A stretch of DNA of 64,000 bases from Flavobacteriales bacterium (GTDB taxonomy: Bacteria; Bacteroidota; Bacteroidia; NS11-12g; UBA955), in the NCBI GenBank assembly GCA_947463095.1, contig CANHRE010000004.1, positions 11,077 to 75,076 on the forward strand, read 5' to 3'. The translations under genes were made by a program, and so were the position numbers. This document shows positions 39,990-56,856 of this stretch, one piece after another. Position 1 is the stretch's first letter. Each line of letters opens with the position of its first letter. The notes beneath the pieces were generated by a model, which was given only the letters and a program-made list of their open reading frames with translations, was not told the DNA's origin and did no database searches.

Positions 39990-40227
39990 GATAGGTAACT
40001 GGTTGTTGTTGTTGCGGGCAAATATATGCATTGTTGGTAACATGTTGACAACCAAGCCTTAAAAATGAAAAATACCCTTAAATAATGGTTAAAAACGATT
40101 ATTTGCGCTTGCCGATGAAGGTCGTTAAACATGCTTTTAGCGATAAACGTCAATATTTGATGCAGGTGTTTATGTGGTTTGTGCATAAACACCTGTGGAT
40201 ATACACGGAACCTACCATAAGCGTGAG

Positions 40228-41847
40228 CTATTTTCGATACACATGGTAGCCCTGGATGATGGTGTCCAGGTAGAATTTTCCGCTAACAGGGTGCCCATCG
40301 GCATGCAGACTGGGCTCTGTGTTCCTGATAAACAGCCTGTACAGAGAATCATTGCTTACCGGCGCTCCTGGAGTGCTTGGCCTTTTGCATAGTTCCGGAG
40401 GGAAATTCTTGCCAAATACCACAACATCCGATGCATCCCAGATTTGTTCCAGATGGTCTGAATACCATTGAATGATATTGGATTCCCTGTCCTGTTTGGT
40501 TCCGGTATTCTGGTAAGGATATGCCTTTAAATAATAAATGTATGGATACTTGATGCTCCAGTCAATACCCACCTGTTGACCCTGGTATGTACTGTTTAAA
40601 TACGCATACATGGAATCGGCGGAAGCACTGGCCTGCCTTATTTCAGGCAATTCGGAGCGGTGAAGGTACGAGGTTGCTGTGCCTCCAAAGAAGCCATAGG
40701 CAGGCCAAAGACAGCCCAAGAATGCAAAGGGCACCAGACTCCAGCGACGCAGCGTTGCAGTATTCCAATGTTCAGAAGCATAACGCATCAGCGCAAACCA
40801 GCAAAGGATATAACCGGTCCACAGGTAATGAGGCCATAGACGTTTGCTCATCAGCATTATAGACATCAGCAGTATGAATCCGCTCATGCCGGCAATCCAG
40901 CTGATGTCGATGTTGCGTTTTACCAACGCCTGCCTTGTTTTATCGGCCATCACCCACAGCACCAGGGCAAGGAATAGGTATCCGGCCCAGGATGCATACA
41001 GGTATTCCTGACCCAGTCCTTGTTGCAGCCATTCCGTAAAACCCAATTGCTGGTTGTCGTAGAAGCGTTCGGTTCCCAGGAAGGTTTTGCGCAAATAGGT
41101 TTGAAGGTAGATAGGTTTTACCGGACTTAACAGCAAACAGGGAATGCCTGTAAAAAAGCCGCCCATAAAAAACAGCACGGAACGCAAGCCCTGTTTGATC
41201 CAGCTTCGGTCTTTAAGTACTGAAAACCCGAGCAATGGCAATGCGAACAGGAGGGGAAGGGTAGTCAGAATGTTGAATTTGGCAGCAAAAGCCAGTCCCA
41301 GCCAGAAATAGTGCTTGCCAAAACGAGGACTTCCTTCAGCAACCATTCCCCTGAAAAACAAAGCCAGAAATAGCAATTGTATGGGTTCCGGCTTAGGCAT
41401 GGTGGTGAAATACAGGGTGTACAATAAGGCCCCTGCACCCCAATACCAAAGCATCCGGATGCCGCTGCGCTTGATGAAGGTTCTTCCCAAAATGAATAAG
41501 GCCGTTAATATCCAGAGGGCCCTGGCCATACGCACCGCCATCACCAAACCGCTGATGCCCCAGATTTTGTAAGGCAGCCAGGCGAGGAGCGCATCGGAAT
41601 AGAAAACCACCCGGCCATAGTACAGGATATCACCGCCAATAACCGCCAGAAACCAATGCTTCATGGAAGCCGGCTCAAGGATGGAATACACTTCCCGGAT
41701 GGTCAGGTACTCATCGTGGCCTGCAATAAAATGGTTGATGTTTGCCCCGTCCAGGAATTGAACGTTCAGCCTGATGGCGAAAAGCAGGAACATGCTGCCA
41801 AACAGCAGTTCCGGAAGGTTTTTCTTTTGAAAAATGCCTGATCCCAT
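40228..41847 (-). CDS. GT-C-fold membrane glycosyltransferase (ArnT/PMT-like), polyprenyl-phosphate-sugar dependent
   Basis: 539 aa with about 13 TM helices. The first periplasmic loop carries HDEYLTIREVYSILEP, a DE-type GT-C motif. It is the last gene of the 7-gene operon, immediately downstream of a Dpm1-like GT2. Confidence 0.6.
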   Translation of the reverse strand: MGSGIFQKKNLPELLFGSMFLLFAIRLNVQFLDGANINHFIAGHDEYLTIREVYSILEPASMKHWFLAVIGGDILYYGRVVFYSDALLAWLPYKIWGISGLVMAVRMARALWILTALFILGRTFIKRSGIRMLWYWGAGALLYTLYFTTMPKPEPIQLLFLALFFRGMVAEGSPRFGKHYFWLGLAFAAKFNILTTLPLLFALPLLGFSVLKDRSWIKQGLRSVLFFMGGFFTGIPCLLLSPVKPIYLQTYLRKTFLGTERFYDNQQLGFTEWLQQGLGQEYLYASWAGYLFLALVLWVMADKTRQALVKRNIDISWIAGMSGFILLMSIMLMSKRLWPHYLWTGYILCWFALMRYASEHWNTATLRRWSLVPFAFLGCLWPAYGFFGGTATSYLHRSELPEIRQASASADSMYAYLNSTYQGQQVGIDWSIKYPYIYYLKAYPYQNTGTKQDRESNIIQWYSDHLEQIWDASDVVVFGKNFPPELCKRPSTPGAPVSNDSLYRLFIRNTEPSLHADGHPVSGKFYLDTIIQGYHVYRK

Positions 41848-41870: not shown

Positions 41871-42608
41871 TTAAGATTTTACCGAGCGACGCAATTCGAA
41901 GATATACCGCAAGATTCTTTTGATGAGTTTTCTCCTTGTTTTCCAGCTGCTTCCGCTGCCACCCTTGGCTTCACCGGCCACCCTGGGCGCGAAGAACACC
42001 GGGAAATCCATGATGTTCCCGCTTTTTTTGGCGTGGTACAACAGGTATAAATCCAACGAAAAATCATGGGGCGCCGCCGCGTCCACCTGTTGGAAAAACG
42101 AACGGCTGAACAGCTTGGGCTGGGCATTGATTTCAGTAAGCCTGGTACCCAGTGCCAGCGAAGAAAGCAGGCCCATGCCCCAGGAAAAGAAGGCTTCAGA
42201 GGCTTTGCGGTTTTTTCGATAACCTTTTACCAGCAGCGTTTTTTGGTGCTGTGCCGTTGCCTTGCTGTACATATCAAGTGCCTTCAGCACATCCATTGGA
42301 TCCGTTTGCCGGTCGGCATGGGTAACGGCCAATAGAGGCCCGTGTGCTGCCCGCAGTCCCGACAGGATGCCAAATCCGTAGCCCAGGTTCTTTGCCACGT
42401 TTACCACGCGGAATACCCTTCCGTCCCTTCCTGCCAATTCCCGGTCAAATACGGCAGCGGAACCATCGGTTGAACCATTGTTCACCAAGATGATTTCCAA
42501 CCCCTGTTCCTTCAGAGGTAGCGGGTCCAGGCTTTTGAAGAGTTCCGGCAGGTTCTCTACTTCATTATAGCAGGGAATCACAATGGATAACCGGTACTGA
42601 TGTTCCAT
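41871..42608 (-). CDS. GT2-family polyprenyl-phosphate sugar synthase (Dpm1/ArnC/GtrB-like)
   Basis: 245 aa. LSIVIPCYNEVENL…EIILVNNGSTDGS…HADRQTDP carries the DxD-type motifs typical of Dpm1-like GT-A enzymes. Confidence 0.75.
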   Translation of the reverse strand: MEHQYRLSIVIPCYNEVENLPELFKSLDPLPLKEQGLEIILVNNGSTDGSAAVFDRELAGRDGRVFRVVNVAKNLGYGFGILSGLRAAHGPLLAVTHADRQTDPMDVLKALDMYSKATAQHQKTLLVKGYRKNRKASEAFFSWGMGLLSSLALGTRLTEINAQPKLFSRSFFQQVDAAAPHDFSLDLYLLYHAKKSGNIMDFPVFFAPRVAGEAKGGSGSSWKTRRKLIKRILRYIFELRRSVKS

Positions 42609-42620: not shown

Positions 42621-43418
42621 TTATTGTTGATGGGATGCCCTGTTTTTCAGGATGTGGTAATATTCATCCCAGTATTGAAAGGTTTGGTAATCACTCGGTG
42701 TTCCCCAGCAGATATAGTGGTCCACCTCAAAAACCCTGGCACGTAGGCCCATGGCAATCAGGTCGTTGATGCACTCATCCACGTAGAACTCGTTGTTCAC
42801 GCGACGGTTTTGGGCAATCATGCGCTCTGCCGCCTCAACAAACAGACTGCCTTTTCTGAACCAGAAGGCGCCCACGTAGGCATGGTGGTTCAAGGGGTCG
42901 GGCATGTCGTATTTTACTTTGGCTTCGGTGATGCTCACGCCGTCTTCGGCGGTTAACACCCATCCATAGGCTTTGGGGCTGGGCAACACAGTGGGGTTGT
43001 TGCGGAAACTGAATACAATGGCATCCGTATCGCGGCAGGCTTCGGCAAAAGCTTCTTCATCGTACAACATGCCGTTGTCGCTGGCGCCGATGAACAATTC
43101 GCTGTCGTTGTTGATCCAATCGCGGGCAAGCAGACAGGTACTGGCCTGGCCTTCCGTCAGTGCATCTATGGTGATGATGTGTGCCTCCGGGAAATGTTCC
43201 TTCAGCACTGCGTCTATGCCGTATTCTTCAATGTGAAACTGTCGAACCACGAATATGTATTCACCGCCTTCGTAGGGCAGGCTTTTGGCAGCGCTGACCA
43301 CCATGGGCAATCCGCGAACCGGCAGCAGAGGCTTGGGCGTGGTATAGCCCTTCATGGCAAATCGGCTGCCTGCGCCGGCCATAGGTATAAGTTTTATGAA
43401 ATCAGCGGACATGGTCAT
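42621..43418 (-). CDS. Sugar-/alcohol-phosphate nucleotidyltransferase (NTP-transferase GT-A fold), paralogue 2
   Basis: 265 aa. It has the N-terminal G-loop IPMAGAGSRF…KPLLPV. It overlaps its paralogue upstream by 17 nt. Confidence 0.6.
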   Translation of the reverse strand: MTMSADFIKLIPMAGAGSRFAMKGYTTPKPLLPVRGLPMVVSAAKSLPYEGGEYIFVVRQFHIEEYGIDAVLKEHFPEAHIITIDALTEGQASTCLLARDWINNDSELFIGASDNGMLYDEEAFAEACRDTDAIVFSFRNNPTVLPSPKAYGWVLTAEDGVSITEAKVKYDMPDPLNHHAYVGAFWFRKGSLFVEAAERMIAQNRRVNNEFYVDECINDLIAMGLRARVFEVDHYICWGTPSDYQTFQYWDEYYHILKNRASHQQ

Positions 43419-44178
43419 AGCGTTTAAAGATGTCTTCCCAGCTTAAGAATTCCCTCATGTCTTCCGGGGTTCCCCATTGACAAAAATGCGGCACCTCGGC
43501 ATATACCTTCACCTTCAGGCCATCCCGAACCATGTAATTGTATGGCAGGCTGATGAAATACTCGTCAAATACCGTGTTCTGTGAATCCATCAGCTCGGTG
43601 AAGTACTGCTTGATGTAGCTCCCTTTGGAGAAGTAATAAGTTCCTCCTGAATAAAAGCCCTTTTCACGGTCGGTTTCATAATTGTGCTTTTCGGTAATTT
43701 CCAGCATGTTCATGTCTGCATCTGTCAGGCAGGTGGCATACAGATTTTGCGGGTGAAGCAGATGTGGATGGAAGCCGGTATAGCAGATTACGGCACCGTC
43801 GGCACCGCTTTCTTCCATGCTGCGCACGAAATGGGCATAATCCCAGATCATGCTGAAGTCGCAGTAGTTGCAAATCACCGGCTCATCATCGGCAATGCGG
43901 TCAAATACCTGACTCACCGTATAAACCGGTCCGTATTTGTGTGCGTCAATGCCTGCAATTTCCGCCGTGGGGGCGATGCTGAGCAGGAGCTCCCGCAGGT
44001 CGGTGGCCTCCAGCATGTCGTTGCGACAAATAAACAGGATGTCTGTTTCGCCCGGAAACAGGTTCACCACGTGCTCTATCACCGGTTTTCCATGGATGGT
44101 AATCAGGGCCTTGTAGGTATCCCAGCCTGCCTTTTTAAAGCGGCTGCCCTGTCCGGTCATCGGTATGACAATTTTCAT
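43402..44178 (-). CDS. Sugar-/alcohol-phosphate nucleotidyltransferase (NTP-transferase fold), paralogue 1
   Basis: 258 aa. The G-loop is IPMTGQGSRFKKAGWDTYKALITIHGKPVI. The architecture matches the neighbouring paralogue. Confidence 0.6.
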   Translation of the reverse strand: MKIVIPMTGQGSRFKKAGWDTYKALITIHGKPVIEHVVNLFPGETDILFICRNDMLEATDLRELLLSIAPTAEIAGIDAHKYGPVYTVSQVFDRIADDEPVICNYCDFSMIWDYAHFVRSMEESGADGAVICYTGFHPHLLHPQNLYATCLTDADMNMLEITEKHNYETDREKGFYSGGTYYFSKGSYIKQYFTELMDSQNTVFDEYFISLPYNYMVRDGLKVKVYAEVPHFCQWGTPEDMREFLSWEDIFKRYDHVR

Positions 44179-44894
44179 AGCTCGTTTAGAAATTCAATCG
44201 GAAAGTCAGTGTAATAATGGGTGATGCCCAGCTCCCGGAAGCGTCGGAAGTCGTTCAGGTCATTCACCACACAGGCGCCTGCAGCAATGCCCAGCGATTG
44301 AACTTGGGCTACCAGCTCCGGGCTGATGGCTTCTTTCAGGTACATCAGGGCTGTGAAGCGATAACGGGTAGCAAGCTCAAAGTCGGTTTCATGATCGGTG
44401 CCGGGCAGCCGGTCCCAGAACAAGGGGATATGCGGTGCGCGGCGTCGCGCCTCGATCAGGTATTCGCAGTTGATGTCGTTGAAGGCAATGCGTGTTTCCA
44501 TGCCGCAGGCTGCTGCCAGCTTCAGCGCCGGCGCCACCAGTCCGTTCATCTTGGGTTGTATGCTGATGCGGCAGGAGTAGGGCCGAATGGCTTCAAATAC
44601 TTCGCTGAGCAAAGGCACCGTGCAGGGCGCAGCGCCAGGCAGGTAAGCACCGAAGTTCAGCTTTTTCAGCGCTGCAATACCGGCCTGAGGTACGTTGCAG
44701 GATATTCCCGTAACCCGAAGCGTATCTTCATCATGCGTAACCACCAGATGTCCGTCGGCCGTCATCTGTATGTCCAGCTCCAGCCAGGGCGCCCCGGCTT
44801 CAGCCGCGCTCAGGAAGGCTGGAAGCGTGTTCTCCGGAAAACGCGACATATTCCCCCGATGTGCGAAAATCTGTACCTGTCCTCTGTCCCGCAT
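44175..44894 (-). CDS. Glycerophosphodiester phosphodiesterase (GDPD family)
   Basis: QIFAHRGNMSRFPENTLPAFLSAAEAGAPWLELDIQMTADGHLVVTHDED carries the GDPD HR(G)…E…D…H catalytic signature. The start is set at M26 of the ORF-track frame (44894), which gives an ATGA overlap with the upstream gene. The track's start is 44969. Confidence 0.75.
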   Translation of the reverse strand: MRDRGQVQIFAHRGNMSRFPENTLPAFLSAAEAGAPWLELDIQMTADGHLVVTHDEDTLRVTGISCNVPQAGIAALKKLNFGAYLPGAAPCTVPLLSEVFEAIRPYSCRISIQPKMNGLVAPALKLAAACGMETRIAFNDINCEYLIEARRRAPHIPLFWDRLPGTDHETDFELATRYRFTALMYLKEAISPELVAQVQSLGIAAGACVVNDLNDFRRFRELGITHYYTDFPIEFLNEL

Positions 44895-46990
44895 CAAGCC
44901 TGTTTCATTCTGACAAAAATAAGATAGCTCACCATCAGCTGCAGCAAGCCGGTATAATTGCTCTTCCACACCGGATTGTATATGCCCACTTCCTCCAGCT
45001 CGGGTATCATGCGGTAGGCAATGTTGCTGATGTCTTCCGCATTGGCTGTGCCGTCGAAAATCACCACCTGCTTCTCGTGCTCGTAATGATGTTCCAGCGT
45101 CAGGCCCTTCAGGCAGCTTAAACGCTCCAGCAGGGGCTCCATGTTGTGGTCGTTGGGAAGGCTGAGCCGCAGCAACACCTCGGGCACCGTTTCCTGATCC
45201 AGCGGATCAACAGGCCGGCGTGGGAAAAAACTGGCCAACAGGTCGGCCTGCGCTGCCTGAGTGCGGATGAACTTGTTGGAGTCCTCTTCGCGGTGCTTCA
45301 ACTGTTCCAGCACCTTCTCTGGGGTATAGCCCCGCTTTTGTACGTCGCGGTTCACCTTCCACCAAGTGCGTAAAGGTTCATCCGGCTCCATGAAAATCTT
45401 CAGGTCATACACATCGGCCTGGTTCTTCAGGTAAAAAGAATGTAAACCCTCAAAAACAATCAGTCGGTTGGGCTTCAGGAAACGCGGCAAGGTAAACCTG
45501 CCCGTGTTGTGGTCATAGGAACGGCGCTGTATGCCTTTGCCTGTCTTTAGTTGCCGCGCCTGATCCATCTCCTCGTGGAGCTTGTTGGCCCGCGGATCGA
45601 GGTGCGTTAAACGCTCCCAGTTGGCGTCGCCGCGCTCCCAGCGATGCATGTCGTCGCCCCGGATGATGGTGGTATGTGCCGGCTCAAATACCGATGCCAG
45701 CGCCGACGATAAAGTGGACTTGCCGCTGGCCGAATCCCCTCCCACGCCAATCAGGTATGGCTGCGACAGAAACTTTGTTTGTATATTGGTTTTGATGCCT
45801 TCCCGGTACACCAGAAAGCCGCTCAGCAGCAGACTGGTTTGCAAAAGGGTAAAGGTTACGTTCAGGGCCACATCAGAGGCGAATCCTGCCGGGTGTGGCA
45901 TGGCATTGGGTGCCCACCACAGCGCCGTGAGGTAATCACTGCCCGGAATGAGCCCGAAATACAGGAAATACAGGGCACTGAGCAGGATGAATACCGTCTG
46001 CTCCCGCAGGCTTTGTTTTACAATGAAGAACACCAGCAAGGGCACAATCCAGAAATACCAGCCCTGCATCGGCGGAATCAGCAGCGTCAGCGCCAGAAAG
46101 GTAAAGGTGAGGAACAGCACCAGCTGATCGCGGTTCACAAAACGGAAGCTGGCATACCACACCACCAGGATGAAATACACCGCAGGGATGATGTAAAAAC
46201 GCAGCCCCCCGTAGCTGAAATACATGTTGAATACCTGCCGCTGTACGGGGTTGTCGTATACCATCCTTCTGAATCCCACATCCTGCCAGTACGGGAAGTT
46301 GATGAGCAACAACACCGCGAGAAAGATGGCAGCAGATTGCAGCAGTATGCTCAGCCTGACCTTAGGTGTGCGGATCAGGTAGATGGCATAAAAGGGCAAC
46401 ACCAGCGCCATATTCGTCTTGCAGCCCACCGCCATGGCCAGCAACAGGGCCGACAATGGCCAGCGCTCCCTGAACAGGAAATGCAGCGACAGCATGAGCA
46501 GCGCCATGGGCATCACATCCAGCTGCCCGTGGAAATAGTTGATGTACAACAAAACCGGCGACAGCCAGTACCACAGCAACAGTTTGCGGCTGTAAGGCTT
46601 CAGCCAGCGCATCAATACCACCAGGATGCTGAAGTCGGCGGCCAGCAAGGGAATGCGGTACAAAATGGCATCGGCAACGGAAAAGTGATCGCCGCCCGGT
46701 ATCAGCCACCAGAACAACATCCTGGGCAGGCTGAACAGCCACAGCATCAGGGGCGGATAAGGGAATTCTGTGCCTTGGCCGTTCAGGGAGAAATAGGCGT
46801 ATGGATTGGAAAAGTTGCTGCCAATAAAATAGTTGCCGAATGGTGCAAATTGTTCTTTCAGGTAATCAGAAGCAAACAATGCCGCCAGAAGCAGTTTCGC
46901 GGCCAGGCCAAACCAGAATAAACGCGACTTGAGCAGCGGTAATTTGGATTTCCCGAACTTGTCATAGACGCTGAAGCTTCCGTTTGCCAT
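44894..46990 (-). CDS. Fusion protein: N-terminal polytopic (GT-C/GT87-like?) membrane domain joined to a C-terminal uridine-kinase/phosphoribulokinase-family P-loop kinase domain
   Basis: 698 aa. Residues about 1-400 form about 11 TM helices. Residues about 405-698 carry the P-loop GVGGDSASGKSTLSSAL, then IIRGDDMHR and the wider URK/PRK-family layout. Confidence 0.6.
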   Translation of the reverse strand: MANGSFSVYDKFGKSKLPLLKSRLFWFGLAAKLLLAALFASDYLKEQFAPFGNYFIGSNFSNPYAYFSLNGQGTEFPYPPLMLWLFSLPRMLFWWLIPGGDHFSVADAILYRIPLLAADFSILVVLMRWLKPYSRKLLLWYWLSPVLLYINYFHGQLDVMPMALLMLSLHFLFRERWPLSALLLAMAVGCKTNMALVLPFYAIYLIRTPKVRLSILLQSAAIFLAVLLLINFPYWQDVGFRRMVYDNPVQRQVFNMYFSYGGLRFYIIPAVYFILVVWYASFRFVNRDQLVLFLTFTFLALTLLIPPMQGWYFWIVPLLVFFIVKQSLREQTVFILLSALYFLYFGLIPGSDYLTALWWAPNAMPHPAGFASDVALNVTFTLLQTSLLLSGFLVYREGIKTNIQTKFLSQPYLIGVGGDSASGKSTLSSALASVFEPAHTTIIRGDDMHRWERGDANWERLTHLDPRANKLHEEMDQARQLKTGKGIQRRSYDHNTGRFTLPRFLKPNRLIVFEGLHSFYLKNQADVYDLKIFMEPDEPLRTWWKVNRDVQKRGYTPEKVLEQLKHREEDSNKFIRTQAAQADLLASFFPRRPVDPLDQETVPEVLLRLSLPNDHNMEPLLERLSCLKGLTLEHHYEHEKQVVIFDGTANAEDISNIAYRMIPELEEVGIYNPVWKSNYTGLLQLMVSYLIFVRMKQA

Positions 46991-47004: not shown

Positions 47005-47691
47005 TTAGATGAGGTATGCCCGGATGCCCGATTGCGCCGCGCCAAGGATGTCTTTTTCGTGGTTATCGCCCACCATGATCACCTGTTCGGGCGGCAACTG
47101 CAGTTTATCCAGGGCCAGGCGGAAAATGACCGGATCTGGTTTTTCCAGGCCGGCTTCTTCAGAGGTAACCATAAAGTCGAAATAGCGTTCCAGACCCAGG
47201 CGCGCCCACTTGCGGAATTGTATGTGCGTGGTGAGGTCGGTGACAATACACGTGCGTATGTCCGCTGCGTTCAACCGCTGCAGGAACTGTTCTGCCTCCG
47301 GATTCCATTCCATGGCGTCGAGGTAGGCTTCCCAGAAGCAATCCTCCAGTTCCAAGGCCAGCAAGGGCCTGCTTTTGCCAAAAATCAACTCCAGGGCGCT
47401 GTGCAGGTACAGCAGCCGTGAATGAGAAGCCGCCTGACCTTTCAGCTGTACATGCGTTTTGTTGCGGGCTTCCTTCCAGGCTGCTTCCAGCTCCTCGGCG
47501 CCAACAATCTGACGATCCTGCACCCTGCGAAGTACCGCCTCGTACCCCTTCCTGTTGCAGGGTTCATAGGCATAGAGCGTATCATCTAAATCCAGACATG
47601 CGCCCAATACACCATCCAAATTGATGGCAGCAAAACTGTTTTTGGTCAGGATATGGCTCATGCGCTGAGAAAACCGGCTGCTGCATTGCAC
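47005..47691 (-). CDS. HAD-superfamily hydrolase (phosphatase)
   Basis: 228 aa. Motif I is LDLDDTLY (DxD) and motif IV is MVGDNHEKD. It is the first gene of the minus-strand operon. Confidence 0.75.
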   Translation of the reverse strand: MQCSSRFSQRMSHILTKNSFAAINLDGVLGACLDLDDTLYAYEPCNRKGYEAVLRRVQDRQIVGAEELEAAWKEARNKTHVQLKGQAASHSRLLYLHSALELIFGKSRPLLALELEDCFWEAYLDAMEWNPEAEQFLQRLNAADIRTCIVTDLTTHIQFRKWARLGLERYFDFMVTSEEAGLEKPDPVIFRLALDKLQLPPEQVIMVGDNHEKDILGAAQSGIRAYLI

Positions 47692-47877
47692 CAGTTTAGA
47701 TGGGTATTGAACTTAAGGTGAGACAGCGGCATGAACGTTGCGTCGCAAACTTACGGCAAAGGCTAAACTGAAGCAAATGAGGGATTATGGGGAGTGCACC
47801 GGTCCCTGAGCTCATTTTGAATATATGCTCATGACAGGGGTCTGTGCCAACCTGATGAATCCTTAAGCAAGAATTTT

Positions 47878-48127
47878 CTCTTACTTTTTCCTTGATGAAA
47901 AAGGATGCAAAAAATCAAGGCTGCTTGGATAGTGGTAAGGGATAAGTGGTAAGTGGTAAGTGCGGAGGTTTGTAATCCTGCTGTCATCCTGAGCATGCCT
48001 ACCCCTACCGGGCTGCGCAGCAGATTGGTAGGGGAGCTAGTTTACCCTGCCTGCCCCCACCGAGTTGCAAAGCAACTGCTTGCCCCCACTGGATTGCGCA
48101 GCAAGACACCATGGGGGTGGGGGAGCA
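47878..48127. repeat. Modular structured intergenic repeat, copy B (direct relative to copy A; carries an extra ~90-bp module)
   Basis: Matches copy A from the hairpin module through the heptamer array (five TGGWWAG units here) and the CCCCCAC…GTGGGGGTGGGGG module. It holds an additional internal duplication of the C-run-TGCGCAGCA-G-run submodule. The hairpin stem is partly degraded (AAAAAGGATG versus AAAAAGTAAG). Confidence 0.85.
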
Positions 48128-48456
48128 ACGTCGAAGGGAAGGACCGCCCACGCACCCTGATTCATACAGATATCCATCCCTGTGCCTTAAGGAAACATAA
48201 CAACAGAAAACAGTATTTAACCTTAGGCTTCGAAAGATTAAATAAGGGCTTTTTATGGATTGCAATCCAGCCGTTCCTTATGCAGGTTATCAAGGTGTGT
48301 AGATTTGGTATTGTCGCTGTTCAGAGGGATATTAACAGCTTGAGAATAATCTTTCCCGGCGAAATGGTATGGGTTGCATGAAATGCAGAACAAGTGAAAT
48401 CAAACGATCTGGCCTGATTATTTTGTAAGTTCGAAGAGGATATAAGCCACAAAAAC

Positions 48457-48678
48457 ATGCTCCACACAATGGATATAGATAGAACTAATCTGACTATCAT
48501 GGGAGTTGAGTTTACTGATTTGAACACTTTAGAAAGCACCGCAAACGCTTTGGGCAGCAATATGTTCGAAGGCATTAAACCAACACCCAATGGTGTTGAA
48601 ATCATCAGAGACTATGTGACGGGCAAAATAAAGGGGTCTAAGACACATGCTAATCATAGTTCAGAAAATGTGTGTTAA
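48457..48678 (+). CDS. Small hypothetical ORF (73 aa) at the island edge; possibly a remnant or accessory gene
   Basis: MLHTMDIDRTNLTIMGVEFTDLNTLESTANALGSNMFEGIKPTPNGVEIIRDYVTGKIKG… The region is AT-rich like the island, and no family assignment is possible. Confidence 0.25.
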   Translation: MLHTMDIDRTNLTIMGVEFTDLNTLESTANALGSNMFEGIKPTPNGVEIIRDYVTGKIKGSKTHANHSSENVC

Positions 48679-48726
48679 TTTGAACCCAGATACGTTTAGG
48701 CAATATATAACCATGAAAGAAAAAAT

Positions 48727-50577
48727 ATGAGTAAAAATTTGAACCATAAAATAGATGCTGACGACAGAAGCATCAGCGAAATTCTGAAAGACCAGAAATT
48801 TACTATTGATTATTTTCAACGTGAATACCGCTGGCAGGAAAAGCATATCAAACTTTTAATTGAAGACCTGACCACTACGTTTCTTAAATCATATAGGGAA
48901 GGAGATAAGAGATCGGAAGTAGCCAATTATCAAAGCTATTATTTAGGCCCTGTGGTGTTTAGTGTGAACACAGAAAGCGGTAAGAAATCAATTATCGACG
49001 GACAGCAGCGCATTACTTCCATCACACTCCTGCTCATTTACCTGAATCATCTTCAAAAAGATCTTCCGCAGAAAGTAAACATCAGCGAACTCATTTTTTC
49101 TGAAAAATATGGCGAAAAATCCTTCAACATGAGTGATGAAGCCAGAGAAGAGTGCTTGAAAGCACTTTTTGAAGCAGGGGCATACGAACCAACGGAAAAA
49201 GATGATGAAACAGTGCGTAACATGGTTGAACGTTATGAGGATATTGATGCTGTTTTCCCTGAAGAAATTAACGAACATGCACTTCCATTTTTCATTGATT
49301 GGTTTGTTGAAAATGTAGTTATTGTTGAAATCATCGCTTATTCGGATGAGAATGCCTATACCATTTTTGAAACAATGAACGACAGGGGATTAAACCTGAC
49401 GCCAACAGAAATGCTGAAAGGGTATATTCTTTCCAAAATCACAGACAAAAAGCAGAGAACAGAAATCAATGACCTTTGGAAAGAAGAAATTCAAAATCTT
49501 CATGAATATGGTGAAACTACAGACCAAAGCTTTTTCCAAGCATGGTTCAGAGGTAAATATGCGGTGAGTATCAGACCTGGTAAAGCAGGTTCGGAAAATC
49601 AGGACTTTGAATTGATTGGTTCCCGTTTTCATAATTGGTTTAAAGACAATCATAAGTCTCTTTTTAAACTGACCACATCAGACGAGTTCTATACTTTTTT
49701 CAAAAATCAGTTCCCATTTTTTGTAAAGTGGTATATCGAAAGCTGGAAAAGTCAAACCACATATAACGCTGCAAATCCGCATTTGAATTACATTCGTCAT
49801 TGGGGTGTTGCCGAATCGCTTCAAGAACCTCTATTGCTCTCATCAATAAACTTTGGTGATGATGAAACCATCATCAGGAAAAAGTTAGACTTTGTTGCAC
49901 GATATATTGAAACCTTTACGGTTCGACGCAGCGTGAACTACCGTAAATTTGGTCAGACGGCAATTAAATACACCATGTTTAATGTCATCAAACTTATTAG
50001 AGACAATGACCTGAAAACATTAGGCTCAAACTTGGTAAATGAAGTGTCACAAATTGCAGAAACATGGGATGGGGTTTGGAGTTTTGGTCTTCACGGCATG
50101 AACAGAAAGTTTGTAAAACATCTTCTTTCAAGAATTTCAAGTTACGTGGACAATTTAGTCGGTAAGGACACAACCTATGTATCCTATCACCATCCATACG
50201 GCAAGCAGTTTGAGATTGAGCACATTTGGGCAAACAAGTTTGAAGAACATAAAGATGAGTTTGACCAGAAAAATGATTTTCAGGAATGGAGAAATTCAGT
50301 TGGTGCACTCGTGTTATTACCACAAGGCACCAATCAATCATTCAATGGCGATAAGTATGAAGACAAACTGGAAAATTATCTAAAGGAAAATACTTACGCA
50401 CAGACCTTGCATCCAAAGTATTACACGAAGAATCCTAATTTTTTGAAATCGGAAACAGTTCAACAACTCGGATTTAAAGAGCATTCGCAATTCAAGAAGA
50501 ATGATATAGGCGAAAGGCAAATATTAGTTCAACGAATCTGTGAGAAAATATGGTCTGAAGAATACTTCAATGTATAA
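48727..50577 (+). CDS. GmrSD-type DUF262/DUF1524 nuclease (type IV restriction / BrxU-like anti-phage protein)
   Basis: 616 aa. The N-terminal DUF262 (ParB-like NTPase) has DGQQRITSITLLLIYL. The C-terminal DUF1524 His-Me finger has …FEIEHIWANKF…NSVGALVLLPQGTNQSFNGDKYEDKL. GC content is about 36-38% against about 56% genome-wide. Confidence 0.8.
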   Translation: MSKNLNHKIDADDRSISEILKDQKFTIDYFQREYRWQEKHIKLLIEDLTTTFLKSYREGDKRSEVANYQSYYLGPVVFSVNTESGKKSIIDGQQRITSITLLLIYLNHLQKDLPQKVNISELIFSEKYGEKSFNMSDEAREECLKALFEAGAYEPTEKDDETVRNMVERYEDIDAVFPEEINEHALPFFIDWFVENVVIVEIIAYSDENAYTIFETMNDRGLNLTPTEMLKGYILSKITDKKQRTEINDLWKEEIQNLHEYGETTDQSFFQAWFRGKYAVSIRPGKAGSENQDFELIGSRFHNWFKDNHKSLFKLTTSDEFYTFFKNQFPFFVKWYIESWKSQTTYNAANPHLNYIRHWGVAESLQEPLLLSSINFGDDETIIRKKLDFVARYIETFTVRRSVNYRKFGQTAIKYTMFNVIKLIRDNDLKTLGSNLVNEVSQIAETWDGVWSFGLHGMNRKFVKHLLSRISSYVDNLVGKDTTYVSYHHPYGKQFEIEHIWANKFEEHKDEFDQKNDFQEWRNSVGALVLLPQGTNQSFNGDKYEDKLENYLKENTYAQTLHPKYYTKNPNFLKSETVQQLGFKEHSQFKKNDIGERQILVQRICEKIWSEEYFNV

Positions 50578-50694
50578 CAAAGAATTTTTGTAAAGACAGC
50601 CAACGCACAGGTGTAAGCATATTTGCAAGTGTAAGTCCCACCGAAAATCGGACTGGTCATAAGTTGGCAAAATAGCTAACTTAGAACCACGAAC

Positions 50695-50961
50695 ATGAAG
50701 AAGACCAAATTCACAGAAAGCCAGATCGTGAAAGCGATTAAGGAGGCTGAAAACGGCCGTTCAGTGTCGGACATCAGCCGGGAACTGGGCATCAACCCGC
50801 AGACTTTGTACAATTGGAAAAATAAGTACTCCGGTATGGACGGTGAACACCTGCGGCGACTTAAGGAACTGGAAGAGGAGAATCGTAAGCTGAAACACAT
50901 GTATGCCGAATTGGCCCTTGACAACAAGATGCTCAAGGATGTGCTGTCAAAAAAGTGGTAA
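50695..50961 (+). CDS. IS3-family transposase OrfA (HTH)
   Basis: 88 aa: MKKTKFTESQIVKAIKEAENGRSVSDISRELGINPQTLYNWKNKY…, then a leucine-zipper-like C-terminus. This is the typical IS3 OrfA. Confidence 0.85.
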   Translation: MKKTKFTESQIVKAIKEAENGRSVSDISRELGINPQTLYNWKNKYSGMDGEHLRRLKELEEENRKLKHMYAELALDNKMLKDVLSKKW

Positions 50962-51779
50962 GGCCTGCTGCCCGCAGAGAAATAGTAGCTTACCTGCAAG
51001 TATCCCATCAGGTAAGTGTCAGCAGAGCCTGTAAAGCAACCGGGATAAGGAAATCGGTCTATTATTACCGTTCCAGGAAGGACGACAGTGCTGTCATTGA
51101 CGCATTGAGCAACCTTGCCGAACTGAAACCATCCAGAGGCTTCCCTTATGACTTCAATCGCCTGCGCAATGAGGGCCATACCTGGAACCATAAGCGTGTG
51201 AAACGGGTCTATAACCTGATGAATCTGAACCTGAGAAGAAAGCATAGGCGCCGCTTACCCCAACGCGTAGGGGGCGCGTTGGAGCAAGCGCCGAGACCAA
51301 ACCAAACATGGAGTCTGGATTTCATGCATGATACATTAATGAACGGTCGCAAAGTGCGCATCCTGAATATCATAGACGACTACAACCGACAAGCTCTGGC
51401 TATGGACGTTGATTACTCCCATTCGGGAATGAGCGTTTGCAGGGCTCTTGAAAGACTCTTCGCCGAACAAGGCCTTCCTGCTGAGTTACGGTCTGACAAT
51501 GGCCCGGAATTCTTTTCTGGAACCTATACCGACTTCTGTGAGAAACATCAAATCAAGATCCGGTACATCAAGCCAGGAAAGCCTATGCAAAACGGCTTTG
51601 TAGAACGGTTTAACCGCAGTTACAGGGAAGATATCCTGGACGCATACCTGTTTACGAATATTGAAGAATTACGTGATCTCACCTGGCAGTTTCAACAAGA
51701 CTACAATCAAAACCACCCACATCAAGCGCTGAATAACTTAAGCCCCATTGCCTTTCTCAAACTAAACAACCATCTTTGA
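50955..51779 (+). CDS. IS3-family transposase OrfB (DDE integrase-like catalytic domain), expressed by -1 frameshift from OrfA
   Basis: rve-type domain: …WSLDFMHDTL…LRSDNGPEF…YIKPGKPMQNGFVERFNRSYREDIL (DD(35)E). It overlaps OrfA at the AAAAAAG site (50949-50955). Confidence 0.85.
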   Translation: MVRPAARREIVAYLQVSHQVSVSRACKATGIRKSVYYYRSRKDDSAVIDALSNLAELKPSRGFPYDFNRLRNEGHTWNHKRVKRVYNLMNLNLRRKHRRRLPQRVGGALEQAPRPNQTWSLDFMHDTLMNGRKVRILNIIDDYNRQALAMDVDYSHSGMSVCRALERLFAEQGLPAELRSDNGPEFFSGTYTDFCEKHQIKIRYIKPGKPMQNGFVERFNRSYREDILDAYLFTNIEELRDLTWQFQQDYNQNHPHQALNNLSPIAFLKLNNHL

Positions 51780-51816
51780 CTTCCAACTTATTACCGGTTC
51801 GAAAAACGGGGTACCT

Positions 51817-52245
51817 TCATTAAACTTTTAGTTGGCAAACCAATAGACGAAAGCATTTCAGTTGACGGTGCTTGGAATACATCAAATGGTGTTGTAGAGT
51901 ATCAGGGTGTTCACACAAAAACAAAGGAACTAATTTTTAAAGTCGGGCCATTAGAGGACGGGACAAATAACATAGTAGAGTTTTTAGGAATTGTTCATGC
52001 ACTTGCACATTGCAAAAAACACAATATCACTCTTCCAATTTATTCGGACAGTAGAAATGCAATCGGTTGGGTTCGTGACAAAGAAGCAAGAACAAACCAT
52101 GACCGTAGCGAAAGAAATACAAAACTTTTCGACATGTTGGACAGAGCAGTAAAATGGCTTAAAGAAAACGAATATGAGAACGAAATTCTCAAATGGGAAA
52201 CAAAAGCATGGGGAGAAAATCCTGCTGACTTTGGTCGAAAATAAT
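51817..52245 (+). pseudogene. RNase H-like (RNase HI fold) ORF with no usable start codon, abutting the IS3 right end
   Basis: The 142-codon frame FIKLLVGKPIDESISVDGAWNTSNGVVEYQGV…TNNIVEFLGIVHALAHCKKH…IYSDSRNAIGW…WETKAWGENPADF aligns with the RNase HI catalytic D-E-D-D positions. There is no ATG/GTG/TTG between the IS end and the first catalytic Asp. It is AT-rich, and its stop lies 40 nt upstream of the helicase start. Confidence 0.6.
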
Positions 52246-52285
52246 TTTGATATAACTATCTTGCACAAATAAAAATTAAACTCAA

Positions 52286-54469: not shown

Positions 54470-54726
54470 AGCAGCAGACCTTCGGACGGACAATAGCCCA
54501 GCACATAACATCTAGCGGTGTAGAAGCAACCCCGCCCCATAAAAAACCCTTCGACAGGATGATAGCAGAGGTCTTATCCATTTTCCATTCCCCCCAAAGG
54601 ATCGGCCTCAAATGATGGGAGGCGTTAAACGCCGCAAAAAGCCGCTAAATGCCAAGGAAGCTCCGAGCACGCGAGGAGATCGCCGCTGGCATTCGGCTGA
54701 TGGCAAGTGTGCGCCTTTCATCATTT

Positions 54727-54894
54727 GCAGCCTTGATTATTCTCTTACTTTTTCATCAAGGAAAAAGTAAGAGAAAAGAATAGAATATGTTTGATTCGGT
54801 GTGGGGGTAAAAATCGAAATCGTCAAAAACAGACTGCTAACCCCCAAATAATCTGCACACTAACTGTTCAATAAAAACGTTTTGGACAGCAGTG
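54727..54894. repeat. Modular structured intergenic repeat, copy C (inverted relative to copies A and B; hairpin module plus left-arm module only)
   Basis: The reverse complement of 54727-54894 aligns with 15867-16035. This covers CACTGCTGTCCAAAACGTTTTT(T)ATTGAACAGTTAGTGTGC…TTTTTACCCCC…ACCGAATCAA…TATTCTATTCTT…CTCTTACTTTTTCCTTGATGAAAAAGTAAG…AATCAAGGCTGC. The hairpin is perfect. Confidence 0.85.
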
Positions 54895-55127
54895 GTTCAT
54901 AATAATAAAGATATTCACTACAAACGAAGAAAATGAACACTATAACGTACTATAACAGCACTTGCCCAAAAGTGGCGGTTCAGTGCTCCGCAGACACATT
55001 TGTGTTTAATCAATTTTGGTTCTCCGCATCAATCCCTACATATCGGAATGGTGAAAATCGCCGCCTTCGCCAAGCCCGAAACCGTTAGTGGTCAGTTTAG
55101 GACAACACACTAAAAAGACAAGAAATT

Positions 55128-55700: not shown

Positions 55701-55817
55701 AAACCGAACCGCTAATATTTAGCGGAGTAGAAGCAACCACGCTCAAAAAAAATGAGCTAGAGCGTGTTACACGAATTGGGTCAATTTGAGCAAAAACCAC
55801 TAAACTTGACATAAACG

Positions 55818-56702: not shown

Positions 56703-56856
56703 CCATCCAACTACAAAACGGGAGATACTCCGTTTTTCGAACCGGCCATGAGTGGAAACCCTATGGAGGAGCTTCAAGCACAGCAATGCCGTTTTGCGTA
56801 CTTATATCTATGTCCAGAATGCTTGCGTTCGTATTTGTCTGGCTTCATTAGTGGGC

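What the first reader, a model, noticed from the sequence alone, without database searches (positions are those of the whole stretch)
44894..46990. Unusual domain fusion: a polytopic GT-C/GT87-like membrane domain joined to a uridine-kinase/phosphoribulokinase-family P-loop kinase
One ORF encodes about 400 aa of about 11 TM helices, followed with no intervening stop by a soluble URK/PRK-type kinase domain (GVGGDSASGKSTLSS…IIRGDDMHR…). Uridine-kinase-family domains are normally free cytosolic enzymes. Tethering one to a GT-C-like membrane module implies substrate channelling at the membrane, for example phosphorylation of a lipid-linked or transported head group. I do not recognise this architecture as characterised.
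Basis: seen in the sequence. Interest (0 to 1): 0.6.

Follow-up and report, generated by a model that had tools for sequence, protein, structure and literature searches.

The report
Membrane glycosyltransferase fused to phosphoribulokinase-like kinase
One gene joins a membrane sugar-transferase (outer face) to a cytoplasmic kinase closely related to the Calvin-cycle enzyme phosphoribulokinase, and it sits in a widespread, uncharacterised, mobile gene cassette that appears to turn ribulose 5-phosphate into an unusual sugar for decorating the cell surface.

Summary
ORF 44894-46990(-) encodes 698 aa: an N-terminal polytopic GT-C-fold glycosyltransferase domain (residues 1-405) and a C-terminal P-loop kinase (406-698). 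The fusion is real: it is intact in 80/80 fetched loci from many phyla, and the only "split" cases are frameshifted contigs. The catalytic residues of both halves are nearly invariant across 121 divergent clusters.

Two refinements. The kinase is phosphoribulokinase-like, not uridine-kinase-like. GT87 membership is marginal, though the GT-C fold is solid.

The inferred topology puts the two active sites on opposite membrane faces. The same kinase is elsewhere fused to HAD, aldolase-like or GtrA partners.

The gene belongs to a conserved cassette: HAD (closest to RuBP 5-phosphatase), the fusion, a phosphodiesterase (here GDPD), two paralogous nucleotidyltransferases, a DPMS/ArnC/GtrB-like GT2, and usually a class II aldolase-like gene and GtrA. 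The same cassette sits on an E. coli IncR plasmid beside IS26.

Best reading: the fusion joins the first step (Ru5P to RuBP) and the last step (periplasmic transfer) of one surface-glycan decoration pathway. The sugar is probably a pentulose-derived residue, but its identity is inferred, not shown. I found no characterisation in the literature.

The parts
45776..46990 (-). Fusion protein, residues 1-405: GT-C-fold polytopic glycosyltransferase domain (12 predicted TM helices, N-terminus in, C-terminus in)
   Evidence: AF2 pLDDT 90.2, pTM 0.91. Foldseek against PDB: GPI-mannosyltransferase I 9wno (E 1.9e-5, TM 0.63), ALG3, ArnT, ALG6 (TM 0.67), PimE, ALG9/12, EmbB, STT3. Pfam GT87 27.8-29.6 bits. 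D119 and K191 are invariant and D158 is 98% conserved in 121 representatives. Topology.
44894..45775 (-). Fusion protein, residues 406-698 plus stop codon: cytoplasmic phosphoribulokinase-like P-loop kinase with the PRK-type C-terminal beta domain
   Evidence: PF00485 128.5 bits. NCBIfam PRK07429 199.6 bits. PDB 9qko/9qkn 'cyanobacteria specific PRK' E 1.5e-44; bona fide PRK 6hzk/6kev E about 4e-34, with all motifs aligned. Foldseek ranks PRKs first. K424, D446, H449, R453, Y492, H494, K545, R548, D549 and R553 are 100% conserved in 121 representatives.
47005..47691 (-). HAD-family phosphatase, first gene of the operon; closest curated family is ribulose-1,5-bisphosphate 5-phosphatase
   Evidence: Pfam HAD. 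NCBIfam NF053830 E 1.9e-58, 197.9 bits (cut-off 330); the next-best family has E 4.9e-30. A homolog is present in 58/80 loci. The E. coli plasmid homolog gives the same best hit.
44175..44894 (-). Glycerophosphodiester phosphodiesterase (GDPD) family protein. The probable start is Met26 of the listed ORF, which overlaps the fusion's stop codon as TGATG.
   Evidence: PF03009 92.3 bits. TGATG junction read. Homologs are 234-241 aa. GDPD fills the slot held by the aldolase-like gene in most other loci. A small PLC/GDPD-type protein (U190) is a core cassette member elsewhere.
43402..44178 (-). Nucleotidyltransferase 1 (sugar-phosphate nucleotidyltransferase-like)
   Evidence: NTP_transf_3. PDB 4evw NDP-sugar pyrophosphorylase, E 9e-11. 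Present in 65/80 loci. Fused to NT2 in the E. coli and Azospirillum plasmids.
42621..43418 (-). Nucleotidyltransferase 2, a paralog of NT1
   Evidence: 27% identity to NT1, E 1e-26. Weak RmlA/GlmU-type hits. Present in 64/80 loci.
41871..42608 (-). GT2 glycosyltransferase of the polyprenyl-phosphate glycosyltransferase type
   Evidence: PF00535. Best solved relatives are Dol-P-Man synthase 5mlz (aligned over residues 5-244), ArnC and GtrB. Present in 56/80 loci.
40228..41847 (-). Second polytopic membrane protein (539 aa) of unknown family, last gene of the operon; possibly a second, very divergent GT-C-like protein
   Evidence: No Pfam or NCBIfam hit. Homologs in 17/80 loci, all Bacteroidota. 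Weak local similarity to the fusion's GT-C domain (E 8e-4).

Best explanation
The ORF encodes a bifunctional inner-membrane enzyme that carries the first and last activities of one surface-glycan decoration pathway.

The C-terminal cytoplasmic domain is a phosphoribulokinase-type kinase. It most likely converts ribulose 5-phosphate (or a close pentulose 5-phosphate) plus ATP to the 1,5-bisphosphate.

Proposed order of steps:
1. The adjacent HAD phosphatase removes the 5-phosphate to give a pentulose 1-phosphate.
2. In most lineages a class II aldolase/epimerase-like enzyme then tailors the sugar. This window lacks that gene.
3. The two paralogous nucleotidyltransferases, with a PLC/GDPD-type phosphodiesterase (here a canonical GDPD), convert it into a nucleotide-activated donor.
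4. The DPMS/ArnC/GtrB-like GT2 loads the sugar onto a polyprenyl phosphate.
5. A GtrA-type flippase moves it across the membrane. GtrA is encoded in or fused to the cassette in many relatives but is absent from this window.
6. The N-terminal GT-C domain, whose active site faces the periplasm, transfers the sugar to a cell-surface acceptor.

What is shown here: domain identities, folds, residue conservation, gene linkage and the alternative fusions. What is inferred: the order of reactions, the kinase substrate, the identity of the sugar (pentulose-derived) and the acceptor.
For: Kinase identity:
- PRK-like by sequence, profile and structure.
- D446, H449, R453, K545, R548, D549 and R553 are invariant in 121 representatives. 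By motif spacing they correspond to Rhodobacter PRK D42, H45, R49, K165, R168, D169 and R173; that correspondence rests on my own knowledge of PRK mutagenesis.

HAD:
- The best curated match by nearly 30 orders of magnitude is RuBP 5-phosphatase. This holds for the window protein and for the E. coli plasmid homolog.
- The reference enzyme is a strict RuBP 5-phosphatase giving cyclised Ru1P, and it is encoded in an operon with a class II aldolase (PMC9700705).

GT-C:
- Confident model whose top structural hits are all polyprenyl-phosphate-sugar-dependent GT-C enzymes.
- The invariant polar residues map to the outer face.

GT2: its closest solved relatives are DPMS, ArnC and GtrB.

Gene linkage across phyla (80 loci): NT1 65, NT2 64, HAD 58, GT2 56, aldolase-like 69, U190 55, GtrA 32.

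Rosetta-stone fusions:
- PRK+aldolase and HAD+PRK.
- GtrA-GT-C-PRK and GT-C-PRK-aldolase.
- NT1+NT2 fused.

Genomic settings: the same cassette is annotated on an E. coli IncR plasmid next to IS26, and in Azospirillum next to a Wzm/Wzt O-antigen cluster.

Operon structure in the window: overlapping or closely spaced genes, with a TGATG junction between the fusion and GDPD.

The kinase, then HAD phosphatase, then nucleotidyltransferase logic parallels the established ADP/GDP-heptose pathway (HldE/HddA, GmhB, HldE/HddC). This is from my own knowledge.
Against: - There is no biochemical evidence for any step.
- The kinase and HAD score below the curated NCBIfam cut-offs (199.6 vs 236; 197.9 vs 330), so neither is an equivalog of PRK or of RuBP phosphatase.
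- The 1-phosphate of a ketopentose is not anomeric, so how a GT2-compatible donor arises is unexplained (note 5).
- The window lacks GtrA, the aldolase-like gene and U190 anywhere in its 64 kb.
- About 11 of 80 loci have only the fusion plus the aldolase-like gene nearby.
- The position equivalent to the Glu of PRK's EGLH motif varies (E in 63 of 121).
- The stand-alone cyanobacterial relative is not in a glycan cluster.
- The topology is my manual reading of predicted helices plus charge counts, not a computed membrane embedding.
Confidence: 0.6

Rival explanations
1. One reading: the tethered kinase phosphorylates a membrane-bound substrate (a polyprenol, a polyprenyl-phosphate-linked sugar head group, or a transported sugar), so that the kinase and the GT-C domain channel one lipid-linked intermediate between them.
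For: - The covalent tether to a membrane domain is obligate in this subfamily.
- The last helix of the kinase (residues 678-697) is hydrophobic and confidently predicted, so it could lie on the membrane.
- The chemistry gap after pentulose 1-phosphate leaves room for an unexpected substrate.
Against: - The residues that bind the sugar 5-phosphate in PRK are invariant.
- The same kinase occurs fused to soluble HAD or aldolase domains, and as a non-GT-C protein in other glycan clusters.
- The GT-C conserved residues are on the opposite membrane face.
- A HAD most similar to RuBP 5-phosphatase is the conserved neighbour.
- No polyprenol-kinase-like features were found.
Confidence: 0.1
2. Same cassette logic but a different sugar: the kinase phosphorylates the anomeric O1 of an aldopentose 5-phosphate (ribose-5-P or arabinose-5-P). 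After HAD action and nucleotidyl transfer, the cassette would make an NDP-D-pentofuranose (D-Ribf or D-Araf) for GT2, GtrA and GT-C.
For: - It removes the chemistry gap, because an aldose 1-phosphate is anomeric and would directly suit the nucleotidyltransferases and the DPMS/ArnC-like GT2.
- Scores below the PRK and RuBP-phosphatase cut-offs allow a shifted specificity.
- The logic matches the heptose pathway (my own knowledge).
Against: - All PRK substrate-binding positions are kept.
- The HAD's nearest family and the class II aldolase family both act on ketose phosphates.
- It gives no role for two nucleotidyltransferases plus a phosphodiesterase.
Confidence: 0.15
3. The kinase domain is a nucleoside (uridine/cytidine) kinase that supplies nucleotides locally for the neighbouring nucleotidyltransferases. 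This is what the database names 'uridine kinase' imply.
For: JGI and PGAP label homologs 'uridine kinase'. PF00485 covers both enzyme types.
Against: - Uridine kinase models and structures score far lower than PRK: 64-69 vs 199.6 bits and about 74 vs 185-206 bits.
- The protein has the PRK-type C-terminal domain, which uridine kinases lack.
- PRK-specific His and Arg residues are invariant.
- A nucleoside kinase would not explain the conserved HAD and aldolase-like partners.
Confidence: 0.04
4. The kinase domain is catalytically inert and serves as an ATP-sensing regulatory or oligomerisation module for the GT-C enzyme.
For: PRKs are dimers through their C-terminal domain (my own knowledge). 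The EGLH glutamate position is variable.
Against: - The P-loop Lys, the catalytic Asp residues and all substrate ligands are 100% conserved across 121 clusters at no more than 50% identity to each other.
- The domain travels with pathway enzymes in other fusion arrangements.
Confidence: 0.04

Closest known systems
Three-component periplasmic glycosylation systems (GtrA/GtrB/GtrC of Shigella/Salmonella; ArnC/ArnT; M. tuberculosis PpgS-Rv3632-Rv3779)
   Same: A GT2 polyprenyl-phosphate glycosyltransferase (closest to DPMS/ArnC/GtrB), a GtrA-family flippase (32/80 loci; fused in some proteins) and a GT-C transferase with an outward-facing active site. The cassette is mobile and modular, and in Azospirillum it sits beside an O-antigen cluster.
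   Different: - Known systems use a common nucleotide sugar (UDP-Glc, UDP-Ara4FN, UDP-GalNAc). They carry no dedicated kinase, phosphatase, aldolase, phosphodiesterase or nucleotidyltransferase module.
- None has a kinase fused to the GT-C.
- The window itself lacks GtrA.
Phosphoribulokinase (class II/cyanobacterial-plant type; PDB 6HZK, 6KEV) and the 'cyanobacteria specific PRK' (PDB 9QKO/9QKP/9QKN)
   Same: The same fold including the C-terminal beta domain, an alignment that retains every PRK motif over the catalytic core, and invariant catalytic and Ru5P-binding residues.
   Different: - It scores below the PRK07429 cut-off (199.6 vs 236).
- It is fused to a membrane protein.
- It is never next to Rubisco or CBB genes in the loci examined, and always sits in a glycan cassette.
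- The stand-alone cyanobacterial relative is not in such a cassette.
Haloarchaeal non-carboxylating pentose bisphosphate pathway (RuBP 5-phosphatase + Ru1P aldolase; PMC9700705)
   Same: A HAD most similar to RuBP 5-phosphatase is paired with a class II (FucA-type) aldolase-family gene.
   Different: - That pathway is catabolic (nucleoside to DHAP plus ethylene glycol) and makes RuBP through ribose-1,5-bisphosphate isomerase.
- Here RuBP would come from a PRK-type kinase, and the products feed nucleotidyltransferases and glycosyltransferases.
- The aldolase-like protein is only distantly related to Ru1P aldolase (about 20 bits vs a cut-off of 300) and is absent from this window.
ADP-/GDP-heptose biosynthesis (HldE or HddA kinase, GmhB HAD phosphatase, HldE or HddC nucleotidyltransferase)
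   Same: The same logic: phosphorylate position 1 of a sugar that already carries a distal phosphate, remove the distal phosphate with a HAD enzyme, then add a nucleotide.
   Different: The enzyme families for the kinase differ (ribokinase/GHMP vs PRK), the sugar differs, and there is no membrane fusion. The resemblance is by analogy only and rests on my own knowledge.
GT87 / PimE and other GT-C families (GPI-MT-I GT50, ALG3 GT58, ALG6 GT57, ArnT GT83)
   Same: GT-C fold with 12 TM helices, a long first outer loop and conserved Asp and Lys residues at the outer face.
   Different: No single CAZy family is clearly matched. GT87 is marginal, and other members hit ALG6/8 or ALG3. This looks like a separate GT-C subfamily defined by the C-terminal kinase.

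Membership tests
PRK/uridine kinase superfamily (Pfam PF00485) | Score above the Pfam gathering threshold; P-loop GxxxxGK[ST] | tested here: met
   128.5 bits against a cut-off of 22. P-loop GGDSASGKST; K424 is invariant.
Phosphoribulokinase (EC 2.7.1.19), cyanobacterial/plant type | Score at or above the curated NCBIfam PRK07429 cut-off | tested here: not met
   199.6 bits against a cut-off of 236. It is the best-scoring family but falls below the threshold.
Phosphoribulokinase (EC 2.7.1.19), cyanobacterial/plant type | Catalytic Asp residues and Ru5P-phosphate ligands (Rhodobacter D42, H45, R49, K165, R168, D169, R173) | tested here: met
   D446, H449, R453, K545, R548, D549 and R553 have identical spacing and are 100% conserved in 121 representatives. 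The mapping to Rhodobacter numbering rests on my own knowledge.
Phosphoribulokinase (EC 2.7.1.19), cyanobacterial/plant type | Ru5P-dependent ATP consumption yielding RuBP | not testable with these tools
   Needs an enzyme assay.
Phosphoribulokinase (EC 2.7.1.19), cyanobacterial/plant type | Genomic association with Rubisco / CBB-cycle genes | tested here: not met
   No Rubisco or CBB genes appear among the neighbourhood genes examined in the window or the related loci. The neighbours are glycan-synthesis genes.
Uridine kinase (Udk) | Score at or above the curated equivalog cut-offs (NF004018 180; TIGR00235 220.3) | tested here: not met
   68.8 and 64.3 bits. PDB uridine kinases score about 74 bits against 185-206 for PRKs.
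GT-C glycosyltransferase superfamily | GT-C membrane fold | tested here: met
   Model pLDDT 90.2. The best Foldseek hits are GT-C enzymes or GT-C-like proteins such as PIG-U, with TM-scores of 0.46-0.67 among the top hits.
GT-C glycosyltransferase superfamily | Conserved acidic residue(s) at the outer membrane face near the first external loop | tested here: inconclusive
   D119 (100%) and D158 (98%) are conserved and assigned to the outer face by my manual topology. No coordinates were inspected and no superposition on a catalytic Asp was done.
GT-C glycosyltransferase superfamily | Use of a polyprenyl-phosphate-linked donor | not testable with these tools
   Indirect support only: a DPMS/ArnC/GtrB-like GT2 and GtrA are linked or fused to it.
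GT87 (PF09594; PimE-type mannosyltransferases) | Pfam gathering threshold and consistent family assignment among homologs | tested here: inconclusive
   The window protein scores 27.8-29.6 bits against a cut-off of 25. Only 14 of 37 homologs match at E <= 0.01, and others hit ALG6/8 or ALG3. PimE ranks sixth, with TM 0.47-0.49.
Gtr-type three-component glycan modification system | GtrB-like GT2 polyprenyl-phosphate glycosyltransferase in the same operon | tested here: met
   Window 41871-42608; best solved relatives are DPMS, ArnC and GtrB.
Gtr-type three-component glycan modification system | GtrA-family flippase gene | tested here: not met
   No GtrA homolog anywhere in the 64-kb window. It is present in 32/80 related loci and fused N-terminally in several representatives.
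Haloarchaeal RuBP 5-phosphatase (NF053830) - for the neighbouring HAD | Score at or above the curated cut-off | tested here: not met
   197.9 bits against a cut-off of 330. It is the best family, at E 1.9e-58 against 4.9e-30 for the next.

The most novel reading that the evidence does not exclude
The cassette is the so-far unknown route to activated ketopentofuranose donors, which would supply the rare ribulose or xylulose residues of bacterial glycans.

Proposed route:
1. Ru5P is diverted through RuBP and Ru1P by a recruited Calvin-cycle-type kinase and a RuBP 5-phosphatase.
2. In most lineages the sugar is epimerised by the aldolase-like enzyme.
3. The phosphate is moved from C1 to the anomeric C2: a first nucleotidyl transfer, then PLC-type formation and opening of a 1,2-cyclic phosphate, then a second nucleotidyl transfer.
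4. The sugar is loaded on polyprenyl phosphate, flipped, and attached outside the cell by the GT-C half of the fusion.

This would account for every conserved part, including the two nucleotidyltransferase domains and the phosphodiesterase.
Probability: 0.2. Interest if true: 0.8.

Novelty: new variant of a known kind. Interest (0 to 1): 0.62.

Why it matters
GT2, flippase and GT-C relay systems are a well-known way for bacteria to decorate LPS, teichoic acids, arabinogalactan and proteins. They affect phage receptors, serotype and immune recognition.

This variant brings its own precursor-synthesis module, built around a phosphoribulokinase homolog outside any carbon-fixation context, and it physically joins the first and last enzymes. 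It occurs in at least 134 species-level genomes: Bacteroidota, Alphaproteobacteria including Rickettsiales, Melainabacteria, several CPR lineages, a spirochaete symbiont and SAR86. It is also mobile, sitting on an E. coli IncR plasmid next to IS26.

If the sugar is a pentulose, the cassette would explain how ketopentose residues enter bacterial glycans, for which I found no described donor pathway. It also warns that database labels such as "uridine kinase" or "phosphoribulokinase" on these proteins should not be read as nucleotide salvage or CO2 fixation.

Tried and rejected
- Frameshift or assembly artefact: rejected. 80/80 loci are contiguous, and the only splits are frameshifted long-read contigs.
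- Uridine kinase identity: rejected on scores and residues.
- Sequence-profile search of the membrane domain against PDB found nothing. Fold comparison was needed, and the full-length model returned only kinase hits, so the domain was modelled separately.
- Whether the small U190 protein is GDPD-like:
  - BLAST was negative.
  - Profile-profile comparison was weak, with probability 14%.
  - Pfam and NCBIfam gave no hit.
  - Only the motif order and PGAP's name for the E. coli homolog support it.
- Is the cyanobacterial stand-alone PRK-like protein in the same cassette? No.
- Link to xylulose-containing E. coli O95: DNA-level searches of 5,426 E. coli genomes found only two plasmids carrying the cassette and no diverged copies. 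That is uninformative at this divergence.
- The Yersinia O:10 O-antigen cluster paper lists no xylulose-synthesis genes. This is suggestive only.
- Phage collection: no match.
- Literature searches for the architecture, for NDP-pentuloses and for the 9QKO protein found no characterisation.
- The sigma-70 promoter scan was uninformative for a Bacteroidota sequence.
- The second 698-aa ORF at 950-3046 is unrelated.

Full report
**Observation.** The minus-strand ORF at 44894-46990 is present exactly as described: ATG start, 698 aa, no internal stop. It contains the quoted P-loop and DDMH strings. Pfam assigns residues 413-589 to the PRK/uridine-kinase family (128.5 bits) and residues 76-305 to GT87 (27.8 bits, just above the cut-off of 25). 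The window is a Bacteroidota chromosome, with gyrB and T9SS-tailed proteins. The closest relatives of the protein come from Bacteroidota MAGs.

**Is the fusion real?** Yes.
- More than 400 homologous clusters were found, nearly all about 700 aa.
- A scan of one genome per species found 134 encoding a relative. All 80 fetched loci carry both halves contiguously.
- A library-wide search with the membrane domain alone found 817 representatives with E <= 0.001. Of the best 150, 120 are at least 640 aa.
- The two kinase-less hits I examined, L087 and L088, align to the fusion across three reading frames, with overlapping residues at the junction and a second shift inside the kinase. They are frameshifted long-read contigs (L087's name indicates about 2.7x coverage), not natural splits.

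**Kinase half.** It is phosphoribulokinase-like rather than uridine-kinase-like.
- NCBIfam's best model is the PRK07429 phosphoribulokinase subfamily, at 199.6 bits over residues 407-659. Uridine kinase models score 64-69 bits.
- A profile of the family scores 201-206 bits against the 2026 "cyanobacteria specific PRK" structures, 185 bits against bona fide cyanobacterial PRK, and about 74 bits against uridine kinases.
- The alignment to PRK 6HZK/6KEV keeps every PRK motif.
- The AlphaFold model (pLDDT 83.3) matches PRKs over about 300 residues, including the C-terminal beta domain that uridine kinases lack.
- In an alignment of 121 full-length representatives, each from a different 50%-identity cluster, these positions are 100% conserved: K424, D446, H449, R453, Y492, H494, K545, R548, D549 and R553. 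By spacing they correspond to the catalytic aspartates and Ru5P-phosphate ligands defined in Rhodobacter PRK (my own knowledge).
- The protein scores below the curated PRK cut-off (236), so I do not file it as a PRK equivalog.

**Membrane half.** No solved structure matches it by sequence. A separate model of residues 1-405 is very confident (pLDDT 90.2, pTM 0.91). Its best structural matches are all polyprenyl-phosphate-sugar-dependent GT-C enzymes: GPI mannosyltransferase I, ALG3, ArnT, ALG6, PimE, ALG9/12, EmbB and STT3. GT87 is only a marginal label: 14 of 37 homologs match it, and others match ALG6/8 or ALG3. From the predicted helices and charge distribution I infer 12 TM helices, N-terminus in and C-terminus in. 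The K/R-rich loops lie on the cytoplasmic side. The invariant polar residues (R112, D119, H154, Q156, D158, K191, Q250, D352) lie at the outer face. The kinase is therefore cytoplasmic, and the two active sites are on opposite sides of the membrane. This topology is my manual reading and was not computed from coordinates.

**Gene context.** The ORF is the second gene of a tightly packed minus-strand operon:
1. HAD, 47005-47691.
2. The fusion.
3. GDPD, whose true start overlaps the fusion's stop as TGATG.
4. Two paralogous nucleotidyltransferases, 27% identical to each other.
5. GT2.
6. A 539-aa polytopic protein of unknown family.

Across the 80 related loci from many phyla, the neighbours recur: NT1 in 65, NT2 in 64, HAD in 58 and GT2 in 56. 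Most loci also have three further genes:
- a class II aldolase/AraD-like gene directly after the fusion (69 loci);
- a small conserved protein I called U190 (55 loci);
- a GtrA flippase (32 loci).

The aldolase-like protein keeps the full catalytic set of class II aldolases/epimerases: the phosphate loop, the catalytic Glu and three His zinc ligands. U190 shows the motif order HR-NT...ExD...HD...K typical of GDPD/PLC-type phosphodiesterases. PGAP names its E. coli homolog a [quoted passage not shown]. My own profile comparison with GDPD was weak.

In the window's own sub-clade, a canonical GDPD occupies the slot of the aldolase-like gene, and U190 is missing from the window and most of this clade (L020 keeps a 125-aa remnant). 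GtrA and the aldolase-like gene are missing throughout the clade. A phosphodiesterase function thus seems to be kept, while the aldolase-like step is dispensable.

**Identity of the neighbours.**
- The HAD's best curated family, by nearly 30 orders of magnitude in E-value, is ribulose-1,5-bisphosphate 5-phosphatase. This holds in the window and in the E. coli plasmid homolog. It remains below the equivalog cut-off.
- That reference enzyme is a strict RuBP phosphatase producing cyclised ribulose 1-phosphate. It is encoded in an operon with a Zn-dependent class II aldolase (PMC9700705).
- The GT2's closest solved relatives are Dol-P-Man synthase, ArnC and GtrB, which are all polyprenyl-phosphate glycosyltransferases.

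**Rosetta-stone evidence.** The same kinase is found in several other fusion arrangements:
- fused to the aldolase-like domain or to a HAD domain;
- as GtrA-GT-C-PRK triple fusions in at least 12 representative clusters, and as one GT-C-PRK-aldolase protein of 1058 aa;
- alongside NT1 and NT2 fused into a single protein in E. coli and Azospirillum.

The kinase/HAD/aldolase/NT module also occurs without a GT-C in clusters that use ordinary glycosyltransferases. These arrangements tie all the parts to one pathway. They also show that the kinase's tether to the GT-C is one of several interchangeable ways of keeping pathway enzymes together.

**Mobility and setting.**
- The complete cassette lies on a 33-kb E. 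coli IncR plasmid next to IS26. It is present in 2 of 5,426 complete E. coli genomes.
- On an Azospirillum brasilense plasmid it sits directly beside a Wzm/Wzt, gmd and GT1 O-antigen cluster.
- In the window it adjoins a low-GC island carrying GmrSD, an IS3 element and a UvrD-like helicase, bounded by tRNA-Val.

**Mechanism.** The best-supported model has these steps:
1. The cytoplasmic PRK-type domain phosphorylates Ru5P, or a close pentulose 5-phosphate, at O1.
2. The HAD removes the 5-phosphate.
3. An optional aldolase-like enzyme tailors the sugar.
4. The nucleotidyltransferases and the phosphodiesterase produce a nucleotide-activated donor.
5. GT2 loads it onto polyprenyl phosphate.
6. 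GtrA flips it across the membrane.
7. The GT-C half of the fusion attaches it to a surface acceptor.

The kinase, HAD phosphatase, nucleotidyltransferase sequence parallels the ADP/GDP-heptose pathway (my own knowledge). What is shown is domain identity, fold, conservation, linkage and fusions. What is inferred is the substrate, the order of steps, the sugar and the acceptor.

A real gap remains. A ketopentose 1-phosphate is not an anomeric phosphate, yet the GT2 and GT-C need a glycosyl donor. The unassigned parts (two nucleotidyltransferase domains and a PLC/GDPD-type enzyme) could bridge this gap by moving the phosphate to C2 through a 1,2-cyclic phosphate. That is speculation (note 5). An alternative is that the kinase acts on the anomeric hydroxyl of an aldopentose 5-phosphate.

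The architecture and its lack of characterisation are supported. The idea of direct channelling, or of phosphorylating a lipid-linked head group, is not supported. The reasons are the opposite-face active sites, the conserved soluble-sugar-phosphate ligands, the alternative fusion partners and the intervening soluble enzymes.

**Literature.** I found no paper describing this fusion, the cassette or an NDP-pentulose.
- Xylulofuranose is a rare glycan component reported in E. coli O95, Y. enterocolitica O:10, C. jejuni RM1221, Eubacterium saburreum and Devosia submarina (PMC8707391).
- The Yersinia O:10 O-antigen cluster paper lists no xylulose-synthesis genes (PMC11380512).
- A nucleotidyltransferase acting on a non-anomeric ketose phosphate has precedent in CDP-6-D-fructose (PMC10918830).

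I could not test whether xylulose-containing organisms carry the module.

**Verdict.** This is a real, widespread and conserved bifunctional protein that anchors an uncharacterised, mobile variant of the GT2/flippase/GT-C glycan-decoration systems, with its own PRK-based precursor module. I rate it a new variant of a known kind, with interest 0.62.

Noticed in passing
window 47700-56970: Low-GC island (34-43% GC against about 52% elsewhere) directly upstream of the operon. It holds a GmrSD type IV restriction enzyme (48727-50577), an IS3-type transposase in two frames (50695-51779), a UvrD-like helicase (52286-54469) and an Lcl_C-domain protein (55818-56702). It ends at tRNA-Val (56889-56966, minus strand). 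It looks like an integrated defence or mobile element.
   Followed up: partly
window 40228-41847 (-); L007 17808-19385; L066 15479-17095; L085 13224-14984; L086 3637-5280; L071 15894-18077: A large polytopic membrane protein with no Pfam or NCBIfam match flanks the cassette in each of these lineages. The Bacteroidota versions are related to one another, and the window protein shows weak local similarity to the fusion's GT-C domain. The others are lineage-specific. They could be acceptor-specific partners or very divergent second GT-C proteins.
   Followed up: partly
L085 (E. coli plasmid NZ_CP145712.1) 6022-14984: The complete cassette sits on a 33-kb IncR plasmid next to an IS26 transposase. 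It was found in only 2 of 5,426 complete E. coli genomes, one from human stool and one from a bullfrog. This host would make the pathway experimentally tractable.
   Followed up: partly
P0320, P0329, P0354, P0415 (785-844 aa); P0290 (1058 aa): Higher-order fusions exist: GtrA-GT-C-PRK, and GT-C-PRK-class II aldolase.
   Followed up: yes
L007 15396-17800: Some Bacteroidota versions of the cassette also carry an MBOAT/DltB-like membrane O-acyltransferase and an adjacent 317-aa protein of unknown family. This suggests further acylation of the product or acceptor.
   Followed up: no
L026 9971-16273 (also L027, L028, L031, L033, L037, L046): A Bacteroidota sub-clade has only the fusion plus the aldolase-like gene together. 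In L026 these are followed by an integrase and an IS91-type transposase. The other cassette genes are not within 10 kb.
   Followed up: partly
fusion residue E514 (window about 45449-45451): The Glu of the PRK EGLH motif is variable across the family (E in 63 of 121; otherwise S, V and others), although all other catalytic positions are invariant.
   Followed up: no
L002 4049-4843; L019 6590-7390: The GDPD genes of two close relatives gave in-frame stop codons at the coordinates I derived. They are either pseudogenes or my ORF boundaries are off.
   Followed up: no
window 950-3046 (-) and 37455-40055 (-): Two T9SS-tailed secreted proteins. One is an M43 metallopeptidase with a PKD domain, which by coincidence is also 698 aa. 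The other is an 866-aa protein immediately downstream of the operon.
   Followed up: partly
L084 (Stanieria cyanosphaera PCC 7437) 8001-8933: The stand-alone 'cyanobacteria specific PRK' (the family of PDB 9QKO) is the closest solved relative of the kinase domain. It lies next to chemotaxis-type signalling genes, not glycan genes, and I found no paper on it.
   Followed up: partly
window 45779-46921 (+): A 380-aa ORF lies antisense to the fusion gene. It is rich in Q, H, R and E and is most likely a spurious reading frame.
   Followed up: no
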